From assembly GCF_009914755.1 (NCBI RefSeq), contig NC_060936.1: a DNA stretch of 64,000 bases. One strand, written 5' to 3'. A program made the position numbers and the translations under genes. Shown in pieces: positions 1 to 10,772 of the stretch (its first letter is position 1; every line of letters starts with the position of its first letter). The DNA is from the human T2T-CHM13v2.0 reference genome, Homo sapiens. The notes below the pieces were generated by a model. That model saw nothing but the letters and a program-made list of their open reading frames with translations. It made no database searches and was not told the DNA's origin.

Positions 1-23
1 GGCATGAGCCACCGCGTCCGGCC
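1..23 (-). mobile_element. Alu (5' end only; rest upstream of window)
   Basis: ggcatgagccaccgcgtccggcc is the reverse complement of the Alu 5' end. Confidence 0.85.
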
Positions 24-75
24 TAAATGTCACTTAGTACCTTTGATATAAAGAGAAAATGTGTGAAAGATTTAG

Positions 76-386
76 TTTTTTGTTTTTTTGTTTGTTTGTT
101 TGTTTGTTTGTTTTGAGATGAGTCTCTCTGTCGCCCAGGCTGGAGTGCAGTGTCATGATCTAGCAGTCTCCGCTTCCCGGGTTCAAGCCATTCTCCTGGC
201 TCAGCCTCTGGAGCAGCTGGGATTACAGGCATGCACCACCATGCCCAGCTAATTTTTGTATTTTTAGTAGAGATAGGGTTTCACCATGTTGGCCAGGCTG
301 GTCACGAACTCCTGACCTCAAGTGAGGTCACCCGCCTCGGCCTCCCGAAGTGCTGGGATTGCAGATGTGAGCCACCATGTCCAGCC
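76..386 (-). mobile_element. Alu (AluS-like) with (TTTG)n tail
   Basis: Dimeric Alu consensus; TSD-like aagatttagt/aagaattagt. Confidence 0.92.
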
Positions 387-395
387 AAGAATTAG

Positions 396-720
<325 letters not shown>

Positions 721-856
721 TCAGATTTTTGATACTCTTAAACCTTCTGATCCTTAGTTTCTCTCTCCAAAATACTCTTTCTAGGTTAAAAAAAAAAGGC
801 TCTTATATTTGGTGCTATGTAAATGAAAATGTTTTTTAGGTTTTCTTGATTTAACA

Positions 857-978
857 ATAGAGACAGGGTCTCCCTGTGTTGCCCAGGCTGGTCTCGAACT
901 CCTGGGCTCAAGAGATCCTCCTGTCTTGGCCTCGCAAAGTGCTAAGTAGGATTACAGGCGTTAGCCACCACACCCGGC
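857..978 (-). mobile_element. Alu monomer (FLAM/AluJ left arm)
   Basis: gagacagggtctc...ctcgaactcctgggctcaag...ccaccacacccggc. Confidence 0.85.
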
Positions 979-1450
979 TGTAAAAATGTACTTATTCTCC
1001 AGCCTCTTTTGTATAAACCATAGTAAGGGATGGGAGTAATGATGTTATCTGTGAAAATAGCCACCATTTACCCGTAAGACAAAACTTGTTAAAGCCTCCT
1101 GAGTCTAACCTAGATTACATCAGGCCCTTTTTCACACACAAAAAAATCCTTTATGGGATTTAATGGAATCTGTTGTTTCCCCCTAAGTTGAAAAACAACT
1201 CTAAGACACTTTAAAGTACCTTCTTGGCCTGGGTTACATGGTTCCCAGCCTAGGTTTCAGACTTTTGCTTAAGGCCAGTTTTAGAAACCCGTGAATTCAG
1301 AAAAGTTAATTCAGAAATTTGATAAACAGAATTGTTATTTAAAAACTAACTGGAAAGATTGTTAAGTTCTTTCTGAATTATTCAGAAATTATGCATCATT
1401 TTCCTTCAAGAATGACAGGGTCAGCATGTGGAATTCCAAGATACCTCTTG

Positions 1451-2762
1451 ACTTCCTCTCAAGCTCCGTGTTTGGTCAGTGGAGGCCCATCCGAGCTCAG
1501 CACTGAGAAGTGTTAGTTTCTTTGGGACCCATCTACCCTGACCACATCATGATGTTCATCTGCAGCTGTTGCAAGGTGTTCAGATTGTATAAACATAAAT
1601 GTCACAAAAACTTTAAAAGAAGTGCAATTCTCAAAAGGTTAGGTGGACTAAAGCATTCTGTAAAGCAACTGCTAATAATGAGCTTACAGTGGATTTGAAT
1701 TTGAAAAATATAGTAACAAGCCTGTCAAATATCTGCAAGAACTATGGAATAAAACTACTGATGCAGTGAAGACAGTTGAAAAGATCAAACAAATGCCAAG
1801 CTATATTTATAATGAACAAATTCAAGAAAAAGGACTACGGAAAGTTCAGGACATCAAAGAAGTCAGGCAAAACTCATCTTGACCCCTGTTGCAGGCAAAG
1901 GAACGCAGCTGGAAGAAAAGATGATATAACAGTTAACAGGATGCAGACATGGCAGAGGTTTCCTAAAAATCTCATTATCTATAACCATTTCTATATTTAC
2001 ATTTGAAAATCTCCTTTGGAGACTTAGAACCTCTAAATTATTGACTTATTTTTTATATAAGGTCACTCCGATGAAAGGTGATTACAAAATCATCTACATT
2101 GCTGTCTACAAAACAGATAATATGGATGTTTGATCGCATCTCATTGTTAACTCTTTACTGATATGTTTGTAAATACAGAAGTGAAATGTGGACATAAAAT
2201 AGTTACGCTATTTGGTTAATGGTACTAGACAACATGTAATTAATGACATTCAAAAATTTATGGCTAGTGATATATATAAAGTAAAATTTTCTTTGCAGTA
2301 AAATATGCCCTTTATTATAGAAGGGAGGATATAAGGAACCAACAGTTTGTATGAAAATAGCTCAAATAATATCTTTTATTTTGATTTTAATATTTCTTAT
2401 TTTGGTTTATTAGTGTCTTAGAACAAAATGGCCTTATATAATGAAGCCTAGTTATGCTGGACTGTTTTGATCTCTTTTAATTGTTCTGACAGATAGTTGG
2501 GGATGAGAGCCGAATAAGGTTTGCCTGAAATAACTGACACTATATAATTTCTGCTTTGGCAAATACTAAGTTCTAACTTGTCATTCCTGGTAGAACAAGC
2601 TTTATTTTTCGAGCCTAGCAATGATCTAGAAGCAGATGTTATCTCAGTGCCTTTTGCAATTTGTTGTGTGGGTTTTTTTTTTTTTAAAGCCACACAATAA
2701 TTTTGGAAAACAATGTATGGGTAGAACATGTGTCTGTTAATTGCACACAAAACCACTTTTAA
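1451..2762 (+). pseudogene. Processed pseudogene (retrocopy) of RSL24D1/RLP24: 5'UTR + decayed CDS (~1499-1966) + 3'UTR
   Basis: Across shifting frames the sequence reads [34 protein letters not shown] / [16 protein letters not shown] / EFEK..ELWNKTTDAVKTVEKIK / QAIFIMNKFKK / KVQDIKEVRQN / AGKGTQLEEKMI*Q, colinear with RSL24D1 ([57 protein letters not shown]...ELWNKTIDAMKRVEEIK...KVQDIKEVKQN...AGKGKQLEEKM). No introns, start codon lost, stops and frameshifts present. UTR extent is from recalled parent mRNA and is less certain than the CDS match. Confidence 0.9.
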
Positions 2763-2791
2763 TGGGTACAGAGTTAAATTTGAAGGAATAA

Positions 2792-2895
2792 GTTCTAGCT
2801 GAAGTATTATGAACTCCAAATAATGCTTTGAGGACCTCCAAAGGTAAAAGTACTAATCCCTTTGGCCATTTATTGAGAGAGAGAGAGAGAGAGAG
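2792..2895. repeat. Left arm of non-Alu inverted repeat (ends in (GA)n)
   Basis: Reverse complement matches 3278-3386 with only a few mismatches. Confidence 0.95.
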
Positions 2896-3050
2896 TAGGG
2901 TGACTATAGTTAATGTATTGAATGTTCTTGCTACAAATAAATGATATTTGAGCTGATGGGTGTGCTAATTACACTGATTTGATCAATACCCATTGTATGT
3001 GAAACAGTACATACACCATATTTACAATTATGTATTTAACATTTAAAATT
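2896..3050 (+). mobile_element. L1MA-like 3' end fragment (inside the inverted-repeat loop)
   Basis: agggtgactatagttaa...gctaattacactgatttgatc...tttacaattatgta resembles old L1M 3'UTR. Confidence 0.65.
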
Positions 3051-3277
3051 TCTAATATAAGTATCTCTCAAACTGTGGATTAACTTCTTGATTTATATTT
3101 AAATATGAATCTTAAGCAAAACAGTGAAAATAACCATCTTGATTTAGTGTTTTTCTCCCATATGTGAATTGTATATACTTAGGTGAGGACAATAAAATCA
3201 ACTGAACTGTAAGCTTAGAATAGGACTGAGGTAATTCTGCACAGCAACTTTACTAATGGTACATTGTTGCTTCAAAA

Positions 3278-3386
3278 CTCTCTCTCTCTCTCTCTGTCTG
3301 TCTCAATAAATGGCCAAAGGGATTAGTAGTTTACCTGTGGAGGTCCTCCAAGCATTATTTGGAGTTGATAATACTTCAGCTACAAC
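3278..3386. repeat. Right arm of non-Alu inverted repeat (starts with (CT)n)
   Basis: ctctc..caataaatggccaaagggattagta..tggaggtcctccaagcattatttggagttgataatacttcagctacaac. Confidence 0.95.
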
Positions 3387-3576
3387 CAAGCAGAATCTCT
3401 TTTTTTTGGAGGTCCTCGAAGCATTATTTGGAGTTGATAATACTTCAGCTTCAATTTGGAGTTGATAATATTTCAGCTAGAACCTAGTAGAATCTGTTTT
3501 TTTCCTTTGGAGGTCCTCAAAGCATTATTGGAGTTCATAATACTGAAGCTAGAACCAAGCAGAATCTGTTTTTTTC
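3338..3576 (+). repeat. Three ~70-nt tandem units (unit 2 has an internal ~24-nt duplication)
   Basis: tggaggtcctcNaagcattatt(t)ggagttNataatactNNagct..aaccNagNagaatctNttttttt starting at 3338, 3407 and 3508. Confidence 0.95.
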
Positions 3577-4341
3577 TGAGGAGTATCGGTAGCATAAATG
3601 TGATTATAAACATAGTACACTTGATATATGGAGGCAGTGACAGCTATTTTTACAAAATTTAAATCTGCAAATGGATTCAACATGTTTATGGGTTATTAAA
3701 ATTGTCTGATTTCTTAGGTTCTTTATAGTACACGTGTTGAAAATAAATGATTAAGAATTGTTTCAAGAATGCAATTATTTGATCTTAAATTTTTATGAGT
3801 TGTTAAAATAGAAATTATTTGAATATCATATATTTGGGTAACAAAAGGCACAAGTCTGAATGTGTTTCTTTTTCTGGAATGGCCATGCCTGCCCACTTTA
3901 GAAATACAAATATCACTGGGCAGCTTGAAGCAGTTGGGAGCCTCCAATGAGAGCAACTTGAGAGAATGATGTTGCAAGTTAGTAGGAGTAAGAAATGCTG
4001 TGTTCTCCCTGTCTTCTCTTAGGTCACATGGCAGCCTGGCCTAAGTGATCGTGAATGGTCTATAAGGGAGGTAGCTGGGACAGGGAGGGGAGTTTGGGCT
4101 AGCCACCGTACCACTTGTCAGCGTGAAAAGTAAGATTGTAATTGCCTGTTTAGTTTTCTGCCTCATCTTTGAAAGTTCCACCAAGCTGGGAACCTCTTGA
4201 TTGTGATGCACAAATGTAAGTACATCAGAAAAAAACAAAAAAACTGGCTTTAAAGCAGGAGCTTGTGGGCCCCTAAGCCAGACGGGGACTAGCTTTTGGC
4301 ATTATATAATTAAGATTTTTTAAATCCTTAATAAGGGTTTT

Positions 4342-4646
4342 ATTTTATTTTTATTTATTTTTTGAGACGGAGTCTTGCTCTGTGGCTCAGGCTGGAGTAC
4401 AGTGGTGCAATCTTGGCTCACTGCAACCTCTGCCTCCTGGCTGTGTTCAAGTGGTTCTGCTTCAGCCTCCCAAGTAGCTGGGGTTAGAGCACCCTGTCAC
4501 CACGCCCCGCTAATTTTTGTATTTCTAGCAGAGATGAAGTTTCACTATGTTGGCCAGGCTGGGCTCAAACTCCTGACCTCAAGTGATCTGCCCGCCTTGG
4601 CCCCCCAAAGTGCTGTGATTACAGGCGTGAGCCGCCACGCCCAGCC
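4342..4646 (-). mobile_element. Alu (AluS-like) with TSD TAATAAGGGTTTT
   Basis: Alu consensus; TSD at 4329-4341 and 4647-4659. Confidence 0.93.
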
Positions 4647-4990
4647 TAATAAGGGTTTTAAAGATAATTAGTGTGTAGGTCTGTAGGCTTATGATGGTAA
4701 CCACAAGTTGTTAATGGCATTGTGAAAAGTTTTTAGTTGCGCTTTATGGGTGGATGCTGAATTACATTTTGATTTGATACTTATAAAAAGAAAAAGTATT
4801 TCTTCAGCTTAAAAAATTGTTTAAAAGTTTGTGATCATATTGTCTACCATGTAGCCAGCTTTCAATTATATGTAAGAGGGACTTTTTGACATTTACAAAT
4901 AATACTTTGAGGTAGATATCTGAAAGCACCAGCACTTGGAAGGTGTTCAGAAGTAACAAATTATAAAATGAGCTAACAAACGAAAGGCAA

Positions 4991-4996
4991 AATAAA
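4991..4996 (+). terminator. Candidate MDM2 intermediate poly(A) signal
   Basis: AATAAA; usage not demonstrable from sequence. Confidence 0.4.
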
Positions 4997-5327
4997 ACCG
5001 TAAAGCAAGCAGATGGGAGGCGTGTTCAGTAACTTATTCATAATGCATCTGAAATGATTGCTGTACTCAAATATTTAACGTTAGAGTAATAGTATTTTGA
5101 ATGAAAACCATAGTTGATTGTCTTTAGAGAGAGGAGTGGTACTGAAACATACTTGAATTCGTATTGCTTTCCTTTAAAGCTCTCCTTTAAAGACTTTAAA
5201 AAAAATTCGATAGGCATTTTCATGTTTCAGTCCTACAATCCCACATCTCTGCTGCCTTCAGAATGCTACAACTTAGATGTCCAGCCAACAGCTTAAAGCC
5301 AATTTATAAAAATAGCATCTTTCCTAA

Positions 5328-6002
<675 letters not shown>

Positions 6003-6561
6003 TAGGTGAATTTCATTTATTTCTCAGGGTTAAATTTTAGCGCTTTTGCCTGTGTCTATTTTTGGTTCACACCTCCCCAGCCCACTGTCCTGTATTAAGT
6101 AGGCCTTCCTTCAAGATCACAGTAATATCTCCCTAAATGGATTTCACTACGTTTGGTCCTATTTTTGGTTCAGTTATAGTTTACAGATACCATCATGTTG
6201 CTTCCCTGATTTAAATATTGGGGGAAAAACTTGCTTTTTGGATTTTATCTCTGATGTTCTACTGGATTATTTTAGACTTTTAGAACACTATGAAATGGGT
6301 GCTTGCTTTTCACTTTTCAAACCTTTTTTGCTTAAACAAAGTTCATAAGCTTATTGTAGTGGGAAGTTCAAAGTCACAGATCTGGTACTTACTCGCCTAG
6401 TGACCTTAGAGACAATAAATCTATAGAGCCTAGTATGGGGTCTGGCAGGTAGTAAGCACTTTTAATGAATGGAAGTTTAATATTCTGTTTGCATCCACTC
6501 GACCATAATCACCCCAAATCCAGCTTAGGTAGCCTTGAATTAACCCCTACTCCACCTTGAA

Positions 6562-6920
6562 GTTTTTTATTTGTTTTTTGCTGAGACAGGGTCTCATTCT
6601 GTCACCCAGGCTGGAGTATAGTGGCGCAAACATGACTCACTGCAGCCTCCTGAGTAGCTGGGAACACAGGCCTGTTGCCACCATGCCTGGCTAATATATA
6701 TATTATATATAATATACATATATTACATATATATATATAATACATATGTGTTTATGTATGTATGTGTGTGTACATTATATATATATATATACTTTTTTTA
6801 GAGGCAGAGTCCTGCTATGTTGCCCAGGCTGGCCTTGAACTCCTGGGCTCAAGCAATCCTCGTGTCTTGACCTTGACCTCTCAAAATGCTGGGATTACAG
6901 GTGCGAGCCACTGCATCTGG
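6562..6920 (-). mobile_element. AluJ-like with internal (TA)n-rich expansion (6695-6791)
   Basis: Alu arms separated by an AT dinucleotide tract. Confidence 0.85.
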
Positions 6921-7031
6921 TGAATTAAGCCTTTTTTATACACTCAACTCTGAGGTATTCTGTTCATACCAATATGTTCCTTTGTATCTTCTTGCCATAG
7001 CAGGTTGTAACATCCTTTTGTATCTCCTTTC

Positions 7032-7342
<311 letters not shown>

Positions 7343-7449
7343 TCAAATGTCAAATAAATACATTGTGTATACAGTAGTAAAGGATGTTGATTGGCATTGA
7401 AAGCAACTATCAAGTTCTTGTTGATTTAGAAGACAAAAAGACAATTTTA

Positions 7450-7722
<273 letters not shown>

Positions 7723-7763
7723 TAACAGTATGTTCATTAAACATTAATCTCACTGATTGTGAT

Positions 7764-8045
7764 TTTTTGTTTGTTTTTTTGAGATGGCGTCTCGCTCTGT
7801 TGCCCAGGGTGGAGTGCAATGGCGTGATCTTGGCTCACTGCAGCCTCCACCTCCTGGGTTCAAGTGATTCTCCTGCTTTAGCCTCCCAAGTAGCTGTGTT
7901 ATTTCAGCTAATTTTTTCATTTTTAGTGGAGATGGGGTTTTGCCATGTTGGCCAGGCTGGTCTCGAATTCCTGACCTCATGTGGTCCACCTGCCTCGGCC
8001 TCCCAAAGTGCTGGGATTACAGGCATTGAGCCACTGTGCCTGGCC
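7764..8045 (-). mobile_element. Alu (AluS-like)
   Basis: Alu consensus. Confidence 0.92.
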
Positions 8046-8266
8046 TGATTATGATTTTTTAAAGTCCCCCCCCAAATTATTGTTTGTGCAATAAATGGCA
8101 AAAAAGAAGCATTCTAAGAAAAAAGTAGTCTTAAAAGTTGATATGGTGTCAGAATTGTAAGAGAGAGGGTCTTGGCTGAAAAGCCTTTTTAGAAAAAATT
8201 GCTCCCTACAAAAAAGGCCTTTTCTACCTTTTCTCACATTTGTTTCTTTTTATAGGAGGCATCTGA

Positions 8267-8590
<324 letters not shown>

Positions 8591-8673
8591 CAAAGTTAAG
8601 CATTTTTTAACCACAAGGTGGGAGGTGGAAGTATCTCGTTGGAAGACTAAAGGTGTCCACTAACGGTAGACCC

Positions 8674-9487
<814 letters not shown>

Positions 9488-9559
9488 GGTAGACTCTTAA
9501 CAGCGCTGAGAGACCACTCCAAGAGAGCAGAGAAATAATAGTTCTATTCTCAGTTGTCA

Positions 9560-9986
<427 letters not shown>

Positions 9987-10239
9987 TTATTTTCTAAATT
10001 GAGACGTCACTTTTTAAAAATTGGTACCTGTAATTTAGCCATTTCCTACTCAGCAATGTCTCATTTAAACTATTATTTGTTTAGCGTGTTTCAAAGAGCA
10101 GATGTAAGCTTGAGCCCATCCTCTGTCCTATGACTAAGTCGATATTAGCAGGGGTTAGGACTGTTAGTTTTCCAGTTCCTACTGGAGGCAAATTCTTTGT
10201 TTACCACTGTTCTCTGTATTTCAAAAGCACCTGGAAATC

Positions 10240-10245
10240 AATAAA
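10240..10245 (+). terminator. Distal MDM2 poly(A) signal
   Basis: AATAAA with upstream TGTA and downstream U-rich sequence; matches recollection of the long MDM2 isoform ending close to CPM. Confidence 0.6.
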
Positions 10246-10772
10246 ATTTGTTATTCAGAACAAAAGCCTTCTCTATATATCAGTATTTCCCAAAATGTGT
10301 TTGGAAATATAGGTATGTTAATCCAAAGGGATGGTACGAGGCTGTATTATTTAAGGAAATGGTCCCATAGCTTAGCATGTTTGGGAAATCCATTTCTTTT
10401 CTGCATTTCTCAGATTCTTTATTACATTAATATAAATTGTGAATTTTCAAATATTTTTTCTGACCAGAAGGCATACTTTCCATCCATCATCTTGTCCATG
10501 GAACACACTGCCCCACAACACAAATTAATTTGGAATGTATTATATATAATATATATAACATATAGCATATGTAACTTGTTCTGGAAGAACTATCTGGACT
10601 TTGAAGAGTTGTTGCAATGTTATTGCCTCATAAAAGGTCATTAAGTTTGGTCTTTCCCAAGCTTTATTTGGTGGTAATCAGTTATTTTTAGTGGACTTTG
10701 TTATACTTGCATAAGTACTTATTTTCAGGTAACATAATGGGAAAAAAGCATTATTTATATGGATATTAGTTC

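What the first reader, a model, noticed from the sequence alone, without database searches (positions are those of the whole stretch)
1451..2762. Whole RSL24D1 mRNA retrocopy embedded in sense orientation in the MDM2 3'UTR
Seen: an intronless, frameshifted copy of the RSL24D1 (RLP24) CDS at ~1499-1966. By recollection of the parent mRNA it also includes the 5'UTR and ~800 nt of 3'UTR. Established: RLP24 is a pre-60S biogenesis factor, and failed ribosome biogenesis signals to p53 via 5S RNP (RPL5/RPL11) binding to MDM2. Inference: every MDM2 transcript extending past ~2.8 kb here carries a captured ribosome-biogenesis mRNA. Retained miRNA/RBP elements could co-regulate MDM2 with RSL24D1, or the two mRNAs could compete. 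The pseudogene may already be annotated; the regulatory link is the hypothesis.
Basis: partly seen in the sequence, partly recalled or inferred. Interest (0 to 1): 0.8.

Follow-up and report, generated by a model that had tools for sequence, protein, structure and literature searches.

The report
Old RSL24D1 retrocopy inside MDM2 3'UTR
A dead, intron-less copy of the ribosome-assembly gene RSL24D1 really does sit inside the tail of the MDM2 messenger RNA, but it looks like an ancient passenger that has drifted freely rather than a regulatory link between ribosome production and p53.

Summary
Window 1451-~2761 (+) is a complete processed copy of the RSL24D1 mRNA: all six exons, 5'UTR to the poly(A) site. 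It lies in the common part of the MDM2 3'UTR. It is dead: start codon deleted, 7 frameshifting indels, 2 in-register stops. It is the most diverged of the 18 copies compared with the parent.

It arrived as part of a larger unit, 1451-3058. The RSL24D1 cDNA is fused directly to the 3' piece of a dispersed repeat that I recall as an L1 3' end. An A-rich tail follows, and 13-nt target-site duplications flank the whole. A spliced MDM2 processed pseudogene on chr2 preserves the empty site. An equally diverged MDM2 3'UTR retrocopy on chr18 already carries the insert. I estimate the insertion at roughly 60-100 My.

The regulatory idea gets no support. Differences from the parent are spread evenly. 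Shared k-mers do not exceed shuffles. Since a chr11 retrocopy of this MDM2 3'UTR split off, the MDM2-resident copy changed more than its dead twin (44 vs 25), while the native 5' flank changed less (7 vs 17).

By-products: a published miR-660 site on the junction, an antisense CPM terminal exon, and a nearby non-Alu hairpin holding all 15 published ADAR1 sites.

The parts
1438..1450 (+). Left target-site duplication (AAGATACCTCTTG)
   Evidence: Its counterpart is at 3059-3071. A single copy, AAAATATCTCTCA, stands at the empty site of the chr2:22.2 Mb MDM2 processed pseudogene.
1451..2761 (+). Full-length processed copy of RSL24D1 mRNA. 5'UTR-derived part about 1451-1501; CDS-derived part about 1502-1966; 3'UTR-derived part 1967-~2761.
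   Evidence: Six parental exons are collinear without introns. RLP24 protein match. Start codon deleted, 9 indels of which 7 shift the frame, in-register stops at parental codons 7 and 151.
2762..2795 (+). First part of the fused dispersed-repeat 3' piece. The name L1 3' end is my recollection.
   Evidence: Dispersed genomic copies start at query base 14 of the uninterrupted chr11 version, which is about window 2761. The first look found 560 candidates, of which 40 were scored. No A-run separates it from the RSL24D1 end.
2796..2893 (+). Later inverted duplication; it forms most of the left arm of a hairpin whose arms are 2790-2895 and 3284-3386
   Evidence: Inverted repeats are 93-94% complementary. 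The fold gives z = -19.7. The segment is absent, with 16 nt in its place, from the chr11, chr2:104.5M and chr18 MDM2 retrocopies, and present in the youngest one, chrX:63.3M.
2894..3040 (+). Rest of the dispersed-repeat 3' piece
   Evidence: Many dispersed hits at 72-89% identity on many chromosomes. Other copies end in A-rich tails, and in 2 of 5 loci the repeat extends at least 540 nt further upstream.
3041..3058 (+). A-rich tail of the inserted unit
   Evidence: Alignment of the window and seven MDM2 retrocopies shows an A-rich stretch just before the right TSD. It is absent from the empty site.
3059..3071 (+). Right target-site duplication (AAGTATCTCTCAA)
2761..2768 (+). Published miR-660 site of the MDM2 3'UTR (positions 3333-3340), lying on the RSL24D1/repeat junction
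   Evidence: The position and the mutagenesis primer are given in PMC4454158. The motif occurs once in window 1-5123 and not in the parent mRNA.
1622..1628 (+). GTGCAAT, a seed match for the miR-25/32/92/367 family (seed recalled), made de novo
   Evidence: The chr11 copy and the parent have GCGCAAT. The site therefore arose by a CpG transition on the chr12 lineage after the chr11 copy split off.
1776..1908 (-). Alternative terminal exon of CPM, antisense inside the CDS-derived part of the retrocopy
   Evidence: The exon coordinates come from the hub annotation. On the minus strand a polypyrimidine tract plus AG abuts 1908, and TATAAA lies about 25-33 nt before 1776-1779. The parent's antisense strand has AA where the retrocopy has the acceptor AG.
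3742..3747 (+). AATAAA of the proximal MDM2 poly(A) site that ends the common 3'UTR
   Evidence: locates the motif. Six of the eight MDM2 retrocopies end at window 3752-3754. The preprint's alternative UTR starts at window 3772.

Best explanation
Window 1451-3058 is a single ancient retro-insertion made by the LINE-1 machinery. It consists of a full-length cDNA of RSL24D1 mRNA (1451-~2761) fused head-to-tail to a 5'-truncated 3' piece of a dispersed repeat, followed by an A-rich tail. A 13-nt target-site duplication flanks the unit. It landed in sense orientation in the common 3'UTR of MDM2, at a TTCT|AAAA site. Shown: its identity, its extent, its disabled state, the empty site and the TSD. 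Inferred: an age of roughly 60-100 My; a single chimeric event (template switch or RNA ligation) rather than two events; and the name L1, which I recall rather than tested. Since insertion the RSL24D1 part has been carried passively in MDM2 mRNAs and has evolved without detectable constraint. The RSL24D1 part makes up about 30% of the roughly 4.3-kb common UTR, and the whole unit about 37%. It works as raw 3'UTR sequence, not as a retained RSL24D1 regulatory module. Its contributions to MDM2 and its neighbour arose after insertion. These are the miR-660 site on the junction, a GTGCAAT seed match made by CpG decay, and an antisense splice acceptor used by CPM.
For: Retrocopy identity.

Disablement and neutral pattern: the start codon is deleted, 7 of 9 CDS indels shift the frame, and there are 2 in-register stops. 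Differences from the family consensus by codon position are 24, 26 and 28 of 154 each.

Age rank: the window copy is 73.1% identical to the parent's last exon and its chr11 derivative 76.2%, against 80.5-93.6% for the 16 other loci compared. Excluding gaps it is 80.5%, against 87.1-93.5% for 7 younger copies.

Insertion unit: the chr2:22.2M locus is a spliced MDM2 cDNA copy, with 11 collinear blocks from window -32198 to -267 and then UTR blocks. In it, window 1448 abuts 3059. It holds one copy of the sequence that is duplicated at 1438-1450 and 3059-3071. The chr18 MDM2-UTR retrocopy, equally diverged (K 0.228 against 0.231), already holds window 2712-2796 plus the repeat piece.

Repeat piece: 560 genomic candidates. 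A-rich tails close the four other copies that reach the homologous 3' part, among the 5 loci fetched. No A-run lies at the RSL24D1/repeat junction.

No constraint: shared k-mers do not exceed shuffles for k = 6 to 12. chr12-specific against chr11-specific substitutions are 44 vs 25 in the retrocopy (chi2 5.2), 24 vs 17 in the 3' flank, and 7 vs 17 in the native 5' flank. Fisher's test of the 5' flank against the retrocopy gives p = 0.004. chr12-chr11 divergence is uniform: 5.4%, 5.6% and 5.2% in the 5' flank, the retrocopy and the 3' flank segment 2896-3400.

Location in the common UTR.
Against: No cross-species alignment, population data, CLIP data or reporter data could be examined, so weak or very local function cannot be seen. 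The relative-rate test covers only the time since the chr11 copy formed (pairwise K about 0.06). It can also be skewed by regional mutation-rate differences; the 5'-flank control argues against that only partly. One recalled seed match, CATCTCA at 2137 (miR-143 7mer-A1), is identical in the window copy, the chr11 copy, the parent and all 7 younger copies. One reporter-validated site (miR-660) lies in the unit, so not all of it is inert. The L1 identity of the fused piece was not established by a tool. Only 1 of 5 other copies had a reverse-transcriptase domain upstream, and it lay farther away than a contiguous L1 would allow. No step-by-step intermediate is available to show a single event. 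The two age estimates differ: K about 0.115 per lineage from the MDM2 retrocopies, against up to 0.197 from the RSL24D1 family consensus.
Confidence: 0.8

Rival explanations
1. The captured RSL24D1 sequence keeps miRNA or RBP elements of its parent, so that MDM2 and RSL24D1 mRNAs are co-regulated or compete (ceRNA-like). This would couple ribosome biogenesis to the p53 brake at the RNA level.
For: The copy is sense-oriented, full-length and sits in the common UTR. 227 homologous 7-mers are still shared, with identical runs up to 19 nt. One weak recalled miR-143 7mer-A1 match is shared by all copies. RSL24D1 knock-down stabilises p53 in human cells (PMC9808572, abstract and section 11), so the pairing is biologically suggestive.
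Against: Shared k-mers are at or below the shuffle expectation. The MDM2-resident copy changed more than its dead chr11 copy, and more, relative to that copy, than the native 5' flank. Codon positions have decayed equally. The two clearest seed matches in the unit, miR-660 and GTGCAAT, are absent from the parent. From general knowledge, not tested here: ceRNA effects need large numbers of shared sites and comparable abundances, and RSL24D1 is thought to be far more abundant than MDM2.
Confidence: 0.06
2. Two separate insertions. An ordinary RSL24D1 processed pseudogene with a poly(A) tail inserted first. A short 5'-truncated L1 then inserted into that tail, which is a preferred endonuclease target. 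The outer TSD would belong to the first event only.
For: Poly(A) tails are known hot spots for L1 endonuclease (general knowledge). The empty-site copy and the oldest filled copy have the same divergence, so there is no temporal resolution between the two steps.
Against: No A-rich remnant lies between the RSL24D1 3' end and the repeat piece, whereas an A-rich tail is kept at the far end. No retrocopy shows an intermediate state: of the copies that reach the site, one is empty and four are filled.
Confidence: 0.2
3. Exapted 3'UTR material. Parts of the insert are now functional for MDM2 regulation in their own right, but not through any relation to RSL24D1. Candidate roles are miRNA sites, spacing for the downstream hairpin, and pairing with the antisense CPM exon.
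For: The miR-660 site at 2761-2768 was validated by reporter mutagenesis in PMC4454158. Two GTGCAAT matches exist in the UTR, at 1622 and 4405. PMC5078576 reports two predicted miR-367-3p sites, of which the first is functional; which site that is could not be checked. CPM transcripts end antisense inside the retrocopy (hub table).
Against: No rate slow-down in the segment. The miRNA evidence comes from over-expression reporter assays. The GTGCAAT site is recent.
Confidence: 0.2

Closest known systems
Processed pseudogenes (retrocopies) of housekeeping and ribosome-related genes
   Same: Intron-less, full mRNA length, on a different chromosome from the parent, TSD-flanked, and disabled by frameshifts and stops. 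It is one of about 20 RSL24D1 retrocopy loci in this genome.
   Different: It lies inside the common 3'UTR of another gene in sense orientation, so it is constitutively transcribed as part of MDM2 mRNA. It has no poly(A) tail of its own. It is the most diverged of the 18 family members compared with the parent.
Chimeric LINE-1 retro-insertions, or 'chimeric retrogenes' (Buzdin et al. 2003, cited in the reference list of bioRxiv 10.1101/2025.02.02.635956; mechanisms discussed there, passages seen)
   Same: A full-length cellular RNA copy at the 5' side, fused directly and in the same orientation to a 5'-truncated repeat 3' end. One A-rich tail, one TSD pair, and an endonuclease-type target site.
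   Different: The partner is an mRNA rather than U6 or another small RNA. The L1 identity of the 3' part rests on my recollection and on its dispersed-repeat behaviour. Neither RSL24D1 nor MDM2 is mentioned in that preprint's main text.
Pseudogene and ceRNA regulation of the PTENP1 type (named from general knowledge; PMC5148010 seen only as a search listing)
   Same: A pseudogene-derived RNA segment shares sequence with its parent's mRNA.
   Different: Here the segment is about 20% diverged with no excess of retained sites. It is embedded in another gene's UTR, and no constraint was detected.
MDM2 3'UTR regulatory architecture: a common UTR and an alternative UTR with inverted Alus (bioRxiv 10.1101/2023.11.30.569399, passages seen)
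   Same: Repeat-derived insertions shape the MDM2 3'UTR. The boundary between the common and alternative UTR at window about 3771 matches the 3' ends of the MDM2 retrocopies.
   Different: That work concerns inverted Alus in the distal UTR. The word 'pseudogene' occurs 0 times in its main text.

Membership tests
Processed pseudogene of RSL24D1 | Collinear with all parental exons, introns absent | tested here: met
   Six exon blocks are contiguous in the window, while the parent on C15 spreads over about 15.6 kb.
Processed pseudogene of RSL24D1 | Parent encodes RSL24D1/RLP24 | tested here: met
   C15 exon 2 has 37 of 38 residues identical to the 163-aa PDB chain 6lss_7, 'Probable ribosome biogenesis protein RLP24'. 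A window frame hits the same chain with E 8.9e-16.
Processed pseudogene of RSL24D1 | Poly(A) tail directly after the mRNA 3' end | tested here: not met
   No A-run follows about 2761. The repeat piece follows directly. An A-rich tail appears only at 3041-3058.
Processed pseudogene of RSL24D1 | Target-site duplication and an empty site | tested here: met
   13-nt TSD at 1438-1450 and 3059-3071. The single-copy site is preserved in the chr2:22.2M MDM2 pseudogene. A plain direct-repeat search around 1451-2762 alone found no TSD.
Processed pseudogene of RSL24D1 | Loss of coding capacity with a neutral substitution pattern | tested here: met
   Start codon deleted, 7 frameshifting indels, 2 stops, and codon-position differences of 24, 26 and 28.
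Chimeric LINE-1 retro-insertion | The 3' partner is the 3' end of an L1 in the same orientation | tested here: inconclusive
   It behaves as a dispersed repeat (560 candidates). Other copies have A-rich tails and a longer upstream extension. RVT_1 was found upstream in only 1 of 5 loci, about 4.8 kb away. The name L1 is recalled; RepeatMasker was not available.
Chimeric LINE-1 retro-insertion | Direct fusion, one tail, and one TSD pair around the whole chimera, at an endonuclease-type site | tested here: met
   The empty site reads TTCT|AAAATATCTCTCA.
ceRNA-type regulatory pseudogene segment | Parental miRNA or RBP elements retained beyond neutral expectation | tested here: not met
   7-mers: 227 observed against 241.6 +/- 20.1 in shuffles. 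8-mers: 172 against 189.3 +/- 21.0.
ceRNA-type regulatory pseudogene segment | Purifying selection on the segment | tested here: not met
   44 chr12-specific against 25 chr11-specific substitutions. The native 5' flank shows 7 against 17.
ceRNA-type regulatory pseudogene segment | Shared occupancy by the same trans-factors, and an effect on expression | not testable with these tools
   No CLIP, expression or reporter data were on hand.

The most novel reading that the evidence does not exclude
The MDM2 common 3'UTR has carried a full-length RSL24D1 mRNA image since early placental evolution. A few surviving identical blocks (up to 19 nt) or structural features might still let one trans-factor, whether a miRNA, an RBP or an antisense CPM isoform, act on both MDM2 and RSL24D1 mRNAs. 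That would give an RNA-level coupling of 60S biogenesis to the p53 brake.
Probability: 0.05. Interest if true: 0.7.

Novelty: new member of a known kind. Interest (0 to 1): 0.3.

Why it matters
It matters in four modest ways.

1. About a third of the MDM2 common 3'UTR, which is used in many reporter studies, is a dead RSL24D1 cDNA plus a repeat piece. Sites found there, such as the miR-660 site, are retro-insertion by-products. They should not be expected in lineages that lack the insert.

2. Identical runs of 15-19 nt between RSL24D1 mRNA and the MDM2 3'UTR are a possible off-target route for RSL24D1 siRNAs, probes or primers. This applies to experiments that read out p53, such as the knock-downs in PMC9808572. 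I did not check any reagent sequence.

3. The genome holds a dated series of at least eight MDM2 mRNA retrocopies. They act as fossils of the 3'UTR. [quoted passage not shown]

4. If the RNA-level coupling were real, it would be a new link between ribosome biogenesis and p53. The constraint tests make that unlikely.

Tried and rejected
- Pfam on five frame fragments gave only one sub-threshold L24e hit. It was replaced by PDB sequence searches.
- A direct-repeat search for a TSD immediately around 1451-2762 found nothing convincing. The TSD appeared only once the true 3' end of the insert (3058) was known from the empty site.
- My first k-mer test counted every gap column as a mismatch and gave a spurious excess (7-mers 227 vs 152.8). 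I redid it with each indel as one event, and the excess vanished.
- I first read the chr11 match as a possible segmental duplication. I rejected that because it starts at window 862 and ends just after the AATAAA at 3742-3747. By eye it is also flanked by a direct repeat, AAAAGTCTCT.... The tool check of that TSD failed on a strand argument and was not repeated.
- I tried to prove the L1 identity of the fused piece by looking for ORF2 domains upstream of five other copies. 44 of 111 stop-free fragments were scanned. RVT_1 appeared in one locus only, and too far away. The result is inconclusive.
- The supplement of PMC5078576 did not contain the MDM2 reporter sequences. The functional miR-367 site therefore could not be assigned to 1622 or 4405.
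- An Rfam scan of window 1-5300 found no family.
- The published miR-339-5p and miR-1827 sites lie in UTR nt 38-1617, which is window -534..1045, upstream of the insert.
- No structure or complex prediction was attempted, since the element is non-coding.
Full report
**1. The observation**

I searched the window's own genome with window 1451-2762. Besides itself, the query matched a multi-exon gene on contig C15. Six collinear pieces covered query 1-1302 of 1312. In window coordinates these are 1451-1577, 1574-1692, 1693-1757, 1759-1818, 1829-1895 and 1893-2752.

The C15 pieces are bounded by canonical AG/GT sites. Joined, they give a 163-codon ORF. Exon 2 of the C15 gene translates to 37 of 38 residues identical to PDB chain 6lss_7, 'Probable ribosome biogenesis protein RLP24'. 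A window reading frame (1682-1882) hits residues 67-130 of the same chain with E 8.9e-16. Pfam alone was weak: 1 of 5 fragments, below the cut-off.

The copy begins within 2 nt of the parental 5' end. It runs to within a few bases of the parental poly(A) site.

**2. State of the copy**

- The start codon is deleted.
- There are 9 indels in the CDS-derived part, of which 7 shift the frame.
- In-register stops stand at parental codons 7 and 151.
- Differences from the family consensus are equal at codon positions 1, 2 and 3: 24, 26 and 28 of 154 each. This is what neutral decay predicts.
- The longest stop-free stretch on the + strand is 78 codons.

About 20 other RSL24D1 retrocopy loci exist in this genome. 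Sixteen of them that I compared are 80.5-93.6% identical to the parent's last exon. The window copy is 73.1% and its chr11 derivative 76.2%. Excluding gaps, the window copy is 80.5% against 87.1-93.5% for seven younger copies. It is the most diverged of the copies compared.

**3. Place in MDM2**

The hub annotation puts the last MDM2 exon at -1146..5123. Three published anchors fix the UTR numbering at window = UTR position - 572:

- The miR-660 site, given as 'position 3333-3340' with its mutagenesis primer (PMC4454158), is window 2761-2768.
- The reverse primer of the '38-1617 nt' reporter fragment (PMC4253422 and PMC4891004) is at window 1023-1045.
- A preprint on MDM2 polyadenylation gives the alternative UTR as hg38 chr12:68844193-68850686. 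With the hub's gene end at 10265, this is window 3772-10265.

The common UTR therefore ends near 3771, just after the AATAAA at 3742-3747. The retrocopy lies wholly inside it and makes up about 30% of about 4.3 kb. It can be strengthened: the main isoforms carry it.

**4. A twin on chr11 and a fossil series**

The best non-self match (92%) is on C11. It extends beyond the retrocopy, from window 862 to about 3752. It stops just after the AATAAA, and a short direct repeat flanks it (read by eye). It is a 5'-truncated retrocopy of MDM2 mRNA that took the nested RSL24D1 copy with it.

Searching with the flanks and fetching the hits revealed seven more MDM2 3'UTR retrocopies. Pairwise JC distances to the window are:

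| Locus | K to window | Notes |
|---|---|---|
| chrX:63.3M | 0.045 | has the inverted-duplication left arm |
| chr11 | 0.061 | lacks the left arm |
| chr2:104.5M | 0.083 | lacks the left arm |
| chrX:24.8M | 0.083 | starts at window 2991 |
| chr2:137.4M | 0.096 | internal deletion of window 1541-3044 |
| chr17 | 0.162 | starts near window 2897 |
| chr18 | 0.228 | already carries the insert |
| chr2:22.2M | 0.231 | empty site |

Six of the eight end at window 3752-3754.

**5. What was actually inserted**

The chr2:22.2M locus is a spliced MDM2 cDNA copy. Eleven collinear blocks match MDM2 genomic positions from window -32198 to -267, followed by UTR blocks. In this locus, window 1448 is joined directly to 3059. 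The junction holds one copy of AAAATATCTCTCA, preceded by TTCT. In the window this sequence is duplicated as AAGATACCTCTTG (1438-1450) and AAGTATCTCTCAA (3059-3071). The inserted unit is therefore 1451-3058, not 1451-2762.

Its 3' part (2762-2795 and 2894-~3040) is a dispersed repeat:
- The first look found 560 genomic candidates, of which 40 were scored.
- The copies start at about window 2761.
- Among the 5 loci fetched, the four copies that reach the homologous 3' part end in A-rich tails.
- In two of the five loci the repeat continues at least 540 nt further upstream.

I recognise it as the 3' end of an old L1, but that name is recollection. My attempt to show ORF2 upstream of other copies was inconclusive: RVT_1 in 1 of 5 loci, too far away.

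An A-rich tail (3041-3058) follows the repeat piece. None separates it from the RSL24D1 end. This architecture is a full-length cellular RNA fused in the same orientation to a truncated LINE 3' end, with one tail, one TSD pair and an endonuclease-type site. It matches known chimeric LINE-1 insertions (bioRxiv 10.1101/2025.02.02.635956, passages). A two-step origin, with an L1 inserting into the retrocopy's poly(A) tail, is not excluded.

**6. Age**

The empty-site copy (K 0.231) and the oldest filled copy, chr18 (K 0.228), bracket the insertion. The chr18 copy holds window 2712-2796 followed by the repeat piece. This puts the insertion at about 0.115 substitutions per site per lineage. The distance of the window copy from the RSL24D1 family consensus is K = 0.197, which includes some parental change. 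HSP-based distances are biased low.

Using recalled figures for human-lineage neutral divergence, I estimate 60-100 My. This is an inference. No other mammalian genome was available.

**7. Tests of the regulatory idea**

(a) Retention. With each indel counted as one event, homologous k-mers shared with the parent are at or below the shuffle expectation. For k = 7, 227 were observed against 241.6 +/- 20.1. For k = 8, 172 against 189.3 +/- 21.0. For k = 12, 54 against 72.0 +/- 17.7. The longest identical run is 19 nt against a shuffled mean of 20.0, from the earlier shuffle that counted each gap column separately.

(b) Relative rate. I used the RSL24D1 family consensus as outgroup and counted substitutions since the chr11 copy split off. 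There are 44 on the MDM2-resident copy and 25 on chr11 (chi2 5.2). There are 9 gaps in the window copy against 1 in chr11.

(c) Controls. With older MDM2 retrocopies as outgroups, the native 5' flank (979-1450) shows 7 (chr12) against 17 (chr11). The 3' flank shows 24 against 17. The 5' flank differs from the retrocopy with Fisher p = 0.004. The native upstream UTR thus shows a hint of constraint, and the insert shows none.

(d) Specific sites, using seeds recalled from memory:
- GTGCAAT at 1622 arose by a CpG transition after the chr11 split. The parent and chr11 have GCGCAAT.
- The miR-660 match is absent from the parent.
- Only a weak miR-143 7mer-A1 match at 2137 is shared by all copies.

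The published miR-339-5p and miR-1827 sites lie upstream of the insert. None of this tests binding or expression, so the hypothesis is made unlikely rather than refuted.

**8. By-products**

The reporter-validated miR-660 site sits on the RSL24D1/repeat junction.

CPM, on the opposite strand, has annotated alternative terminal exons at 1776/1779-1908 (hub table). On that strand a polypyrimidine tract plus AG abuts 1908, and TATAAA lies upstream of the exon end. The AG was created in the retrocopy lineage; the parent's antisense strand reads AA there.

**9. Literature**

I searched for RSL24D1 + MDM2 (18 papers), RSL24D1P (14 papers) and MDM2 + processed pseudogene + UTR (39 papers, 15 listed). 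Judging from titles and abstract starts, none describes this element.

Two detailed MDM2 3'UTR papers do not mention it. 'Pseudogene' occurs 0 times in 10.1101/2023.11.30.569399. PMC12085317 even places its forward primer inside the retrocopy. Pseudogene databases could not be consulted, so an existing annotation elsewhere remains possible.

**10. Verdict**

The object is a new example of a known kind: an ancient processed pseudogene, probably an mRNA/LINE chimera, fixed inside a 3'UTR. The striking functional pairing with MDM2 is best explained as coincidence followed by neutral drift, with a few secondary gains of function.

Noticed in passing
window 2790-2895 and 3284-3386: A non-Alu inverted repeat of about 105 nt, 93-94% complementary, lies just 3' of the retrocopy. 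It folds into a long stem: MFE -244 kcal/mol against -139 +/- 5 for shuffles, z = -19.7. All 15 ADAR1 A-to-I sites of the MDM2 3'UTR listed in PMC12085317 Table S3 map into its two arms. Eight fall at 2803-2872 and seven at 3306-3357. All 15 are A in the window, and the offset used is the only one within +/-3000 that gives this. That paper states there are no Alus near the sites, and its main text does not contain 'hairpin' or 'stem'. PMC4793219 does not mention them either. The hairpin is the likely ADAR substrate.
   Followed up: yes
window 2796-2893 compared with L021, L024, L025 and L029: The left arm of that hairpin is a recent inverted duplication. The three older MDM2 retrocopies that span the spot (chr11, chr2:104.5M, chr18) have 16 nt there instead. 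The youngest copy (chrX:63.3M, K 0.045) has the arm. The ADAR substrate therefore arose between pairwise K of about 0.061 and 0.045, roughly catarrhine age by my estimate.
   Followed up: partly
L030 (G000:C2:22223501-22230500), L021, L024-L029: At least eight retrocopies of MDM2 mRNA exist. One is a nearly full-length spliced processed pseudogene on chr2:22.2M. One, on chr2:137.4M, has an internal deletion of window 1541-3044. Six end at window 3752-3754. [quoted passage not shown]
   Followed up: partly
window 1776-1908 (-): [quoted passage not shown] This gives a 130-133-nt convergent overlap between CPM and MDM2 transcripts. The acceptor AG is a retrocopy-lineage mutation.
   Followed up: partly
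window 3330-3581: Three to four tandem partial copies of a 54-nt unit and a 30-nt unit lie next to and within the right hairpin arm. The chr11 copy has fewer units.
   Followed up: no
window 1569-1586, 2289-2306, 2452-2470: Runs of 18, 18 and 19 nt are perfectly identical between the MDM2 3'UTR and RSL24D1 mRNA. They are long enough to matter for siRNA, probe or primer specificity in RSL24D1 experiments that read out p53. No reagent sequences were checked.
   Followed up: no
window 857-978: An isolated Alu fragment of about 120 nt lies in the MDM2 common UTR. It is present in the chr11 copy and absent from the old chr2:22.2M pseudogene.
   Followed up: no
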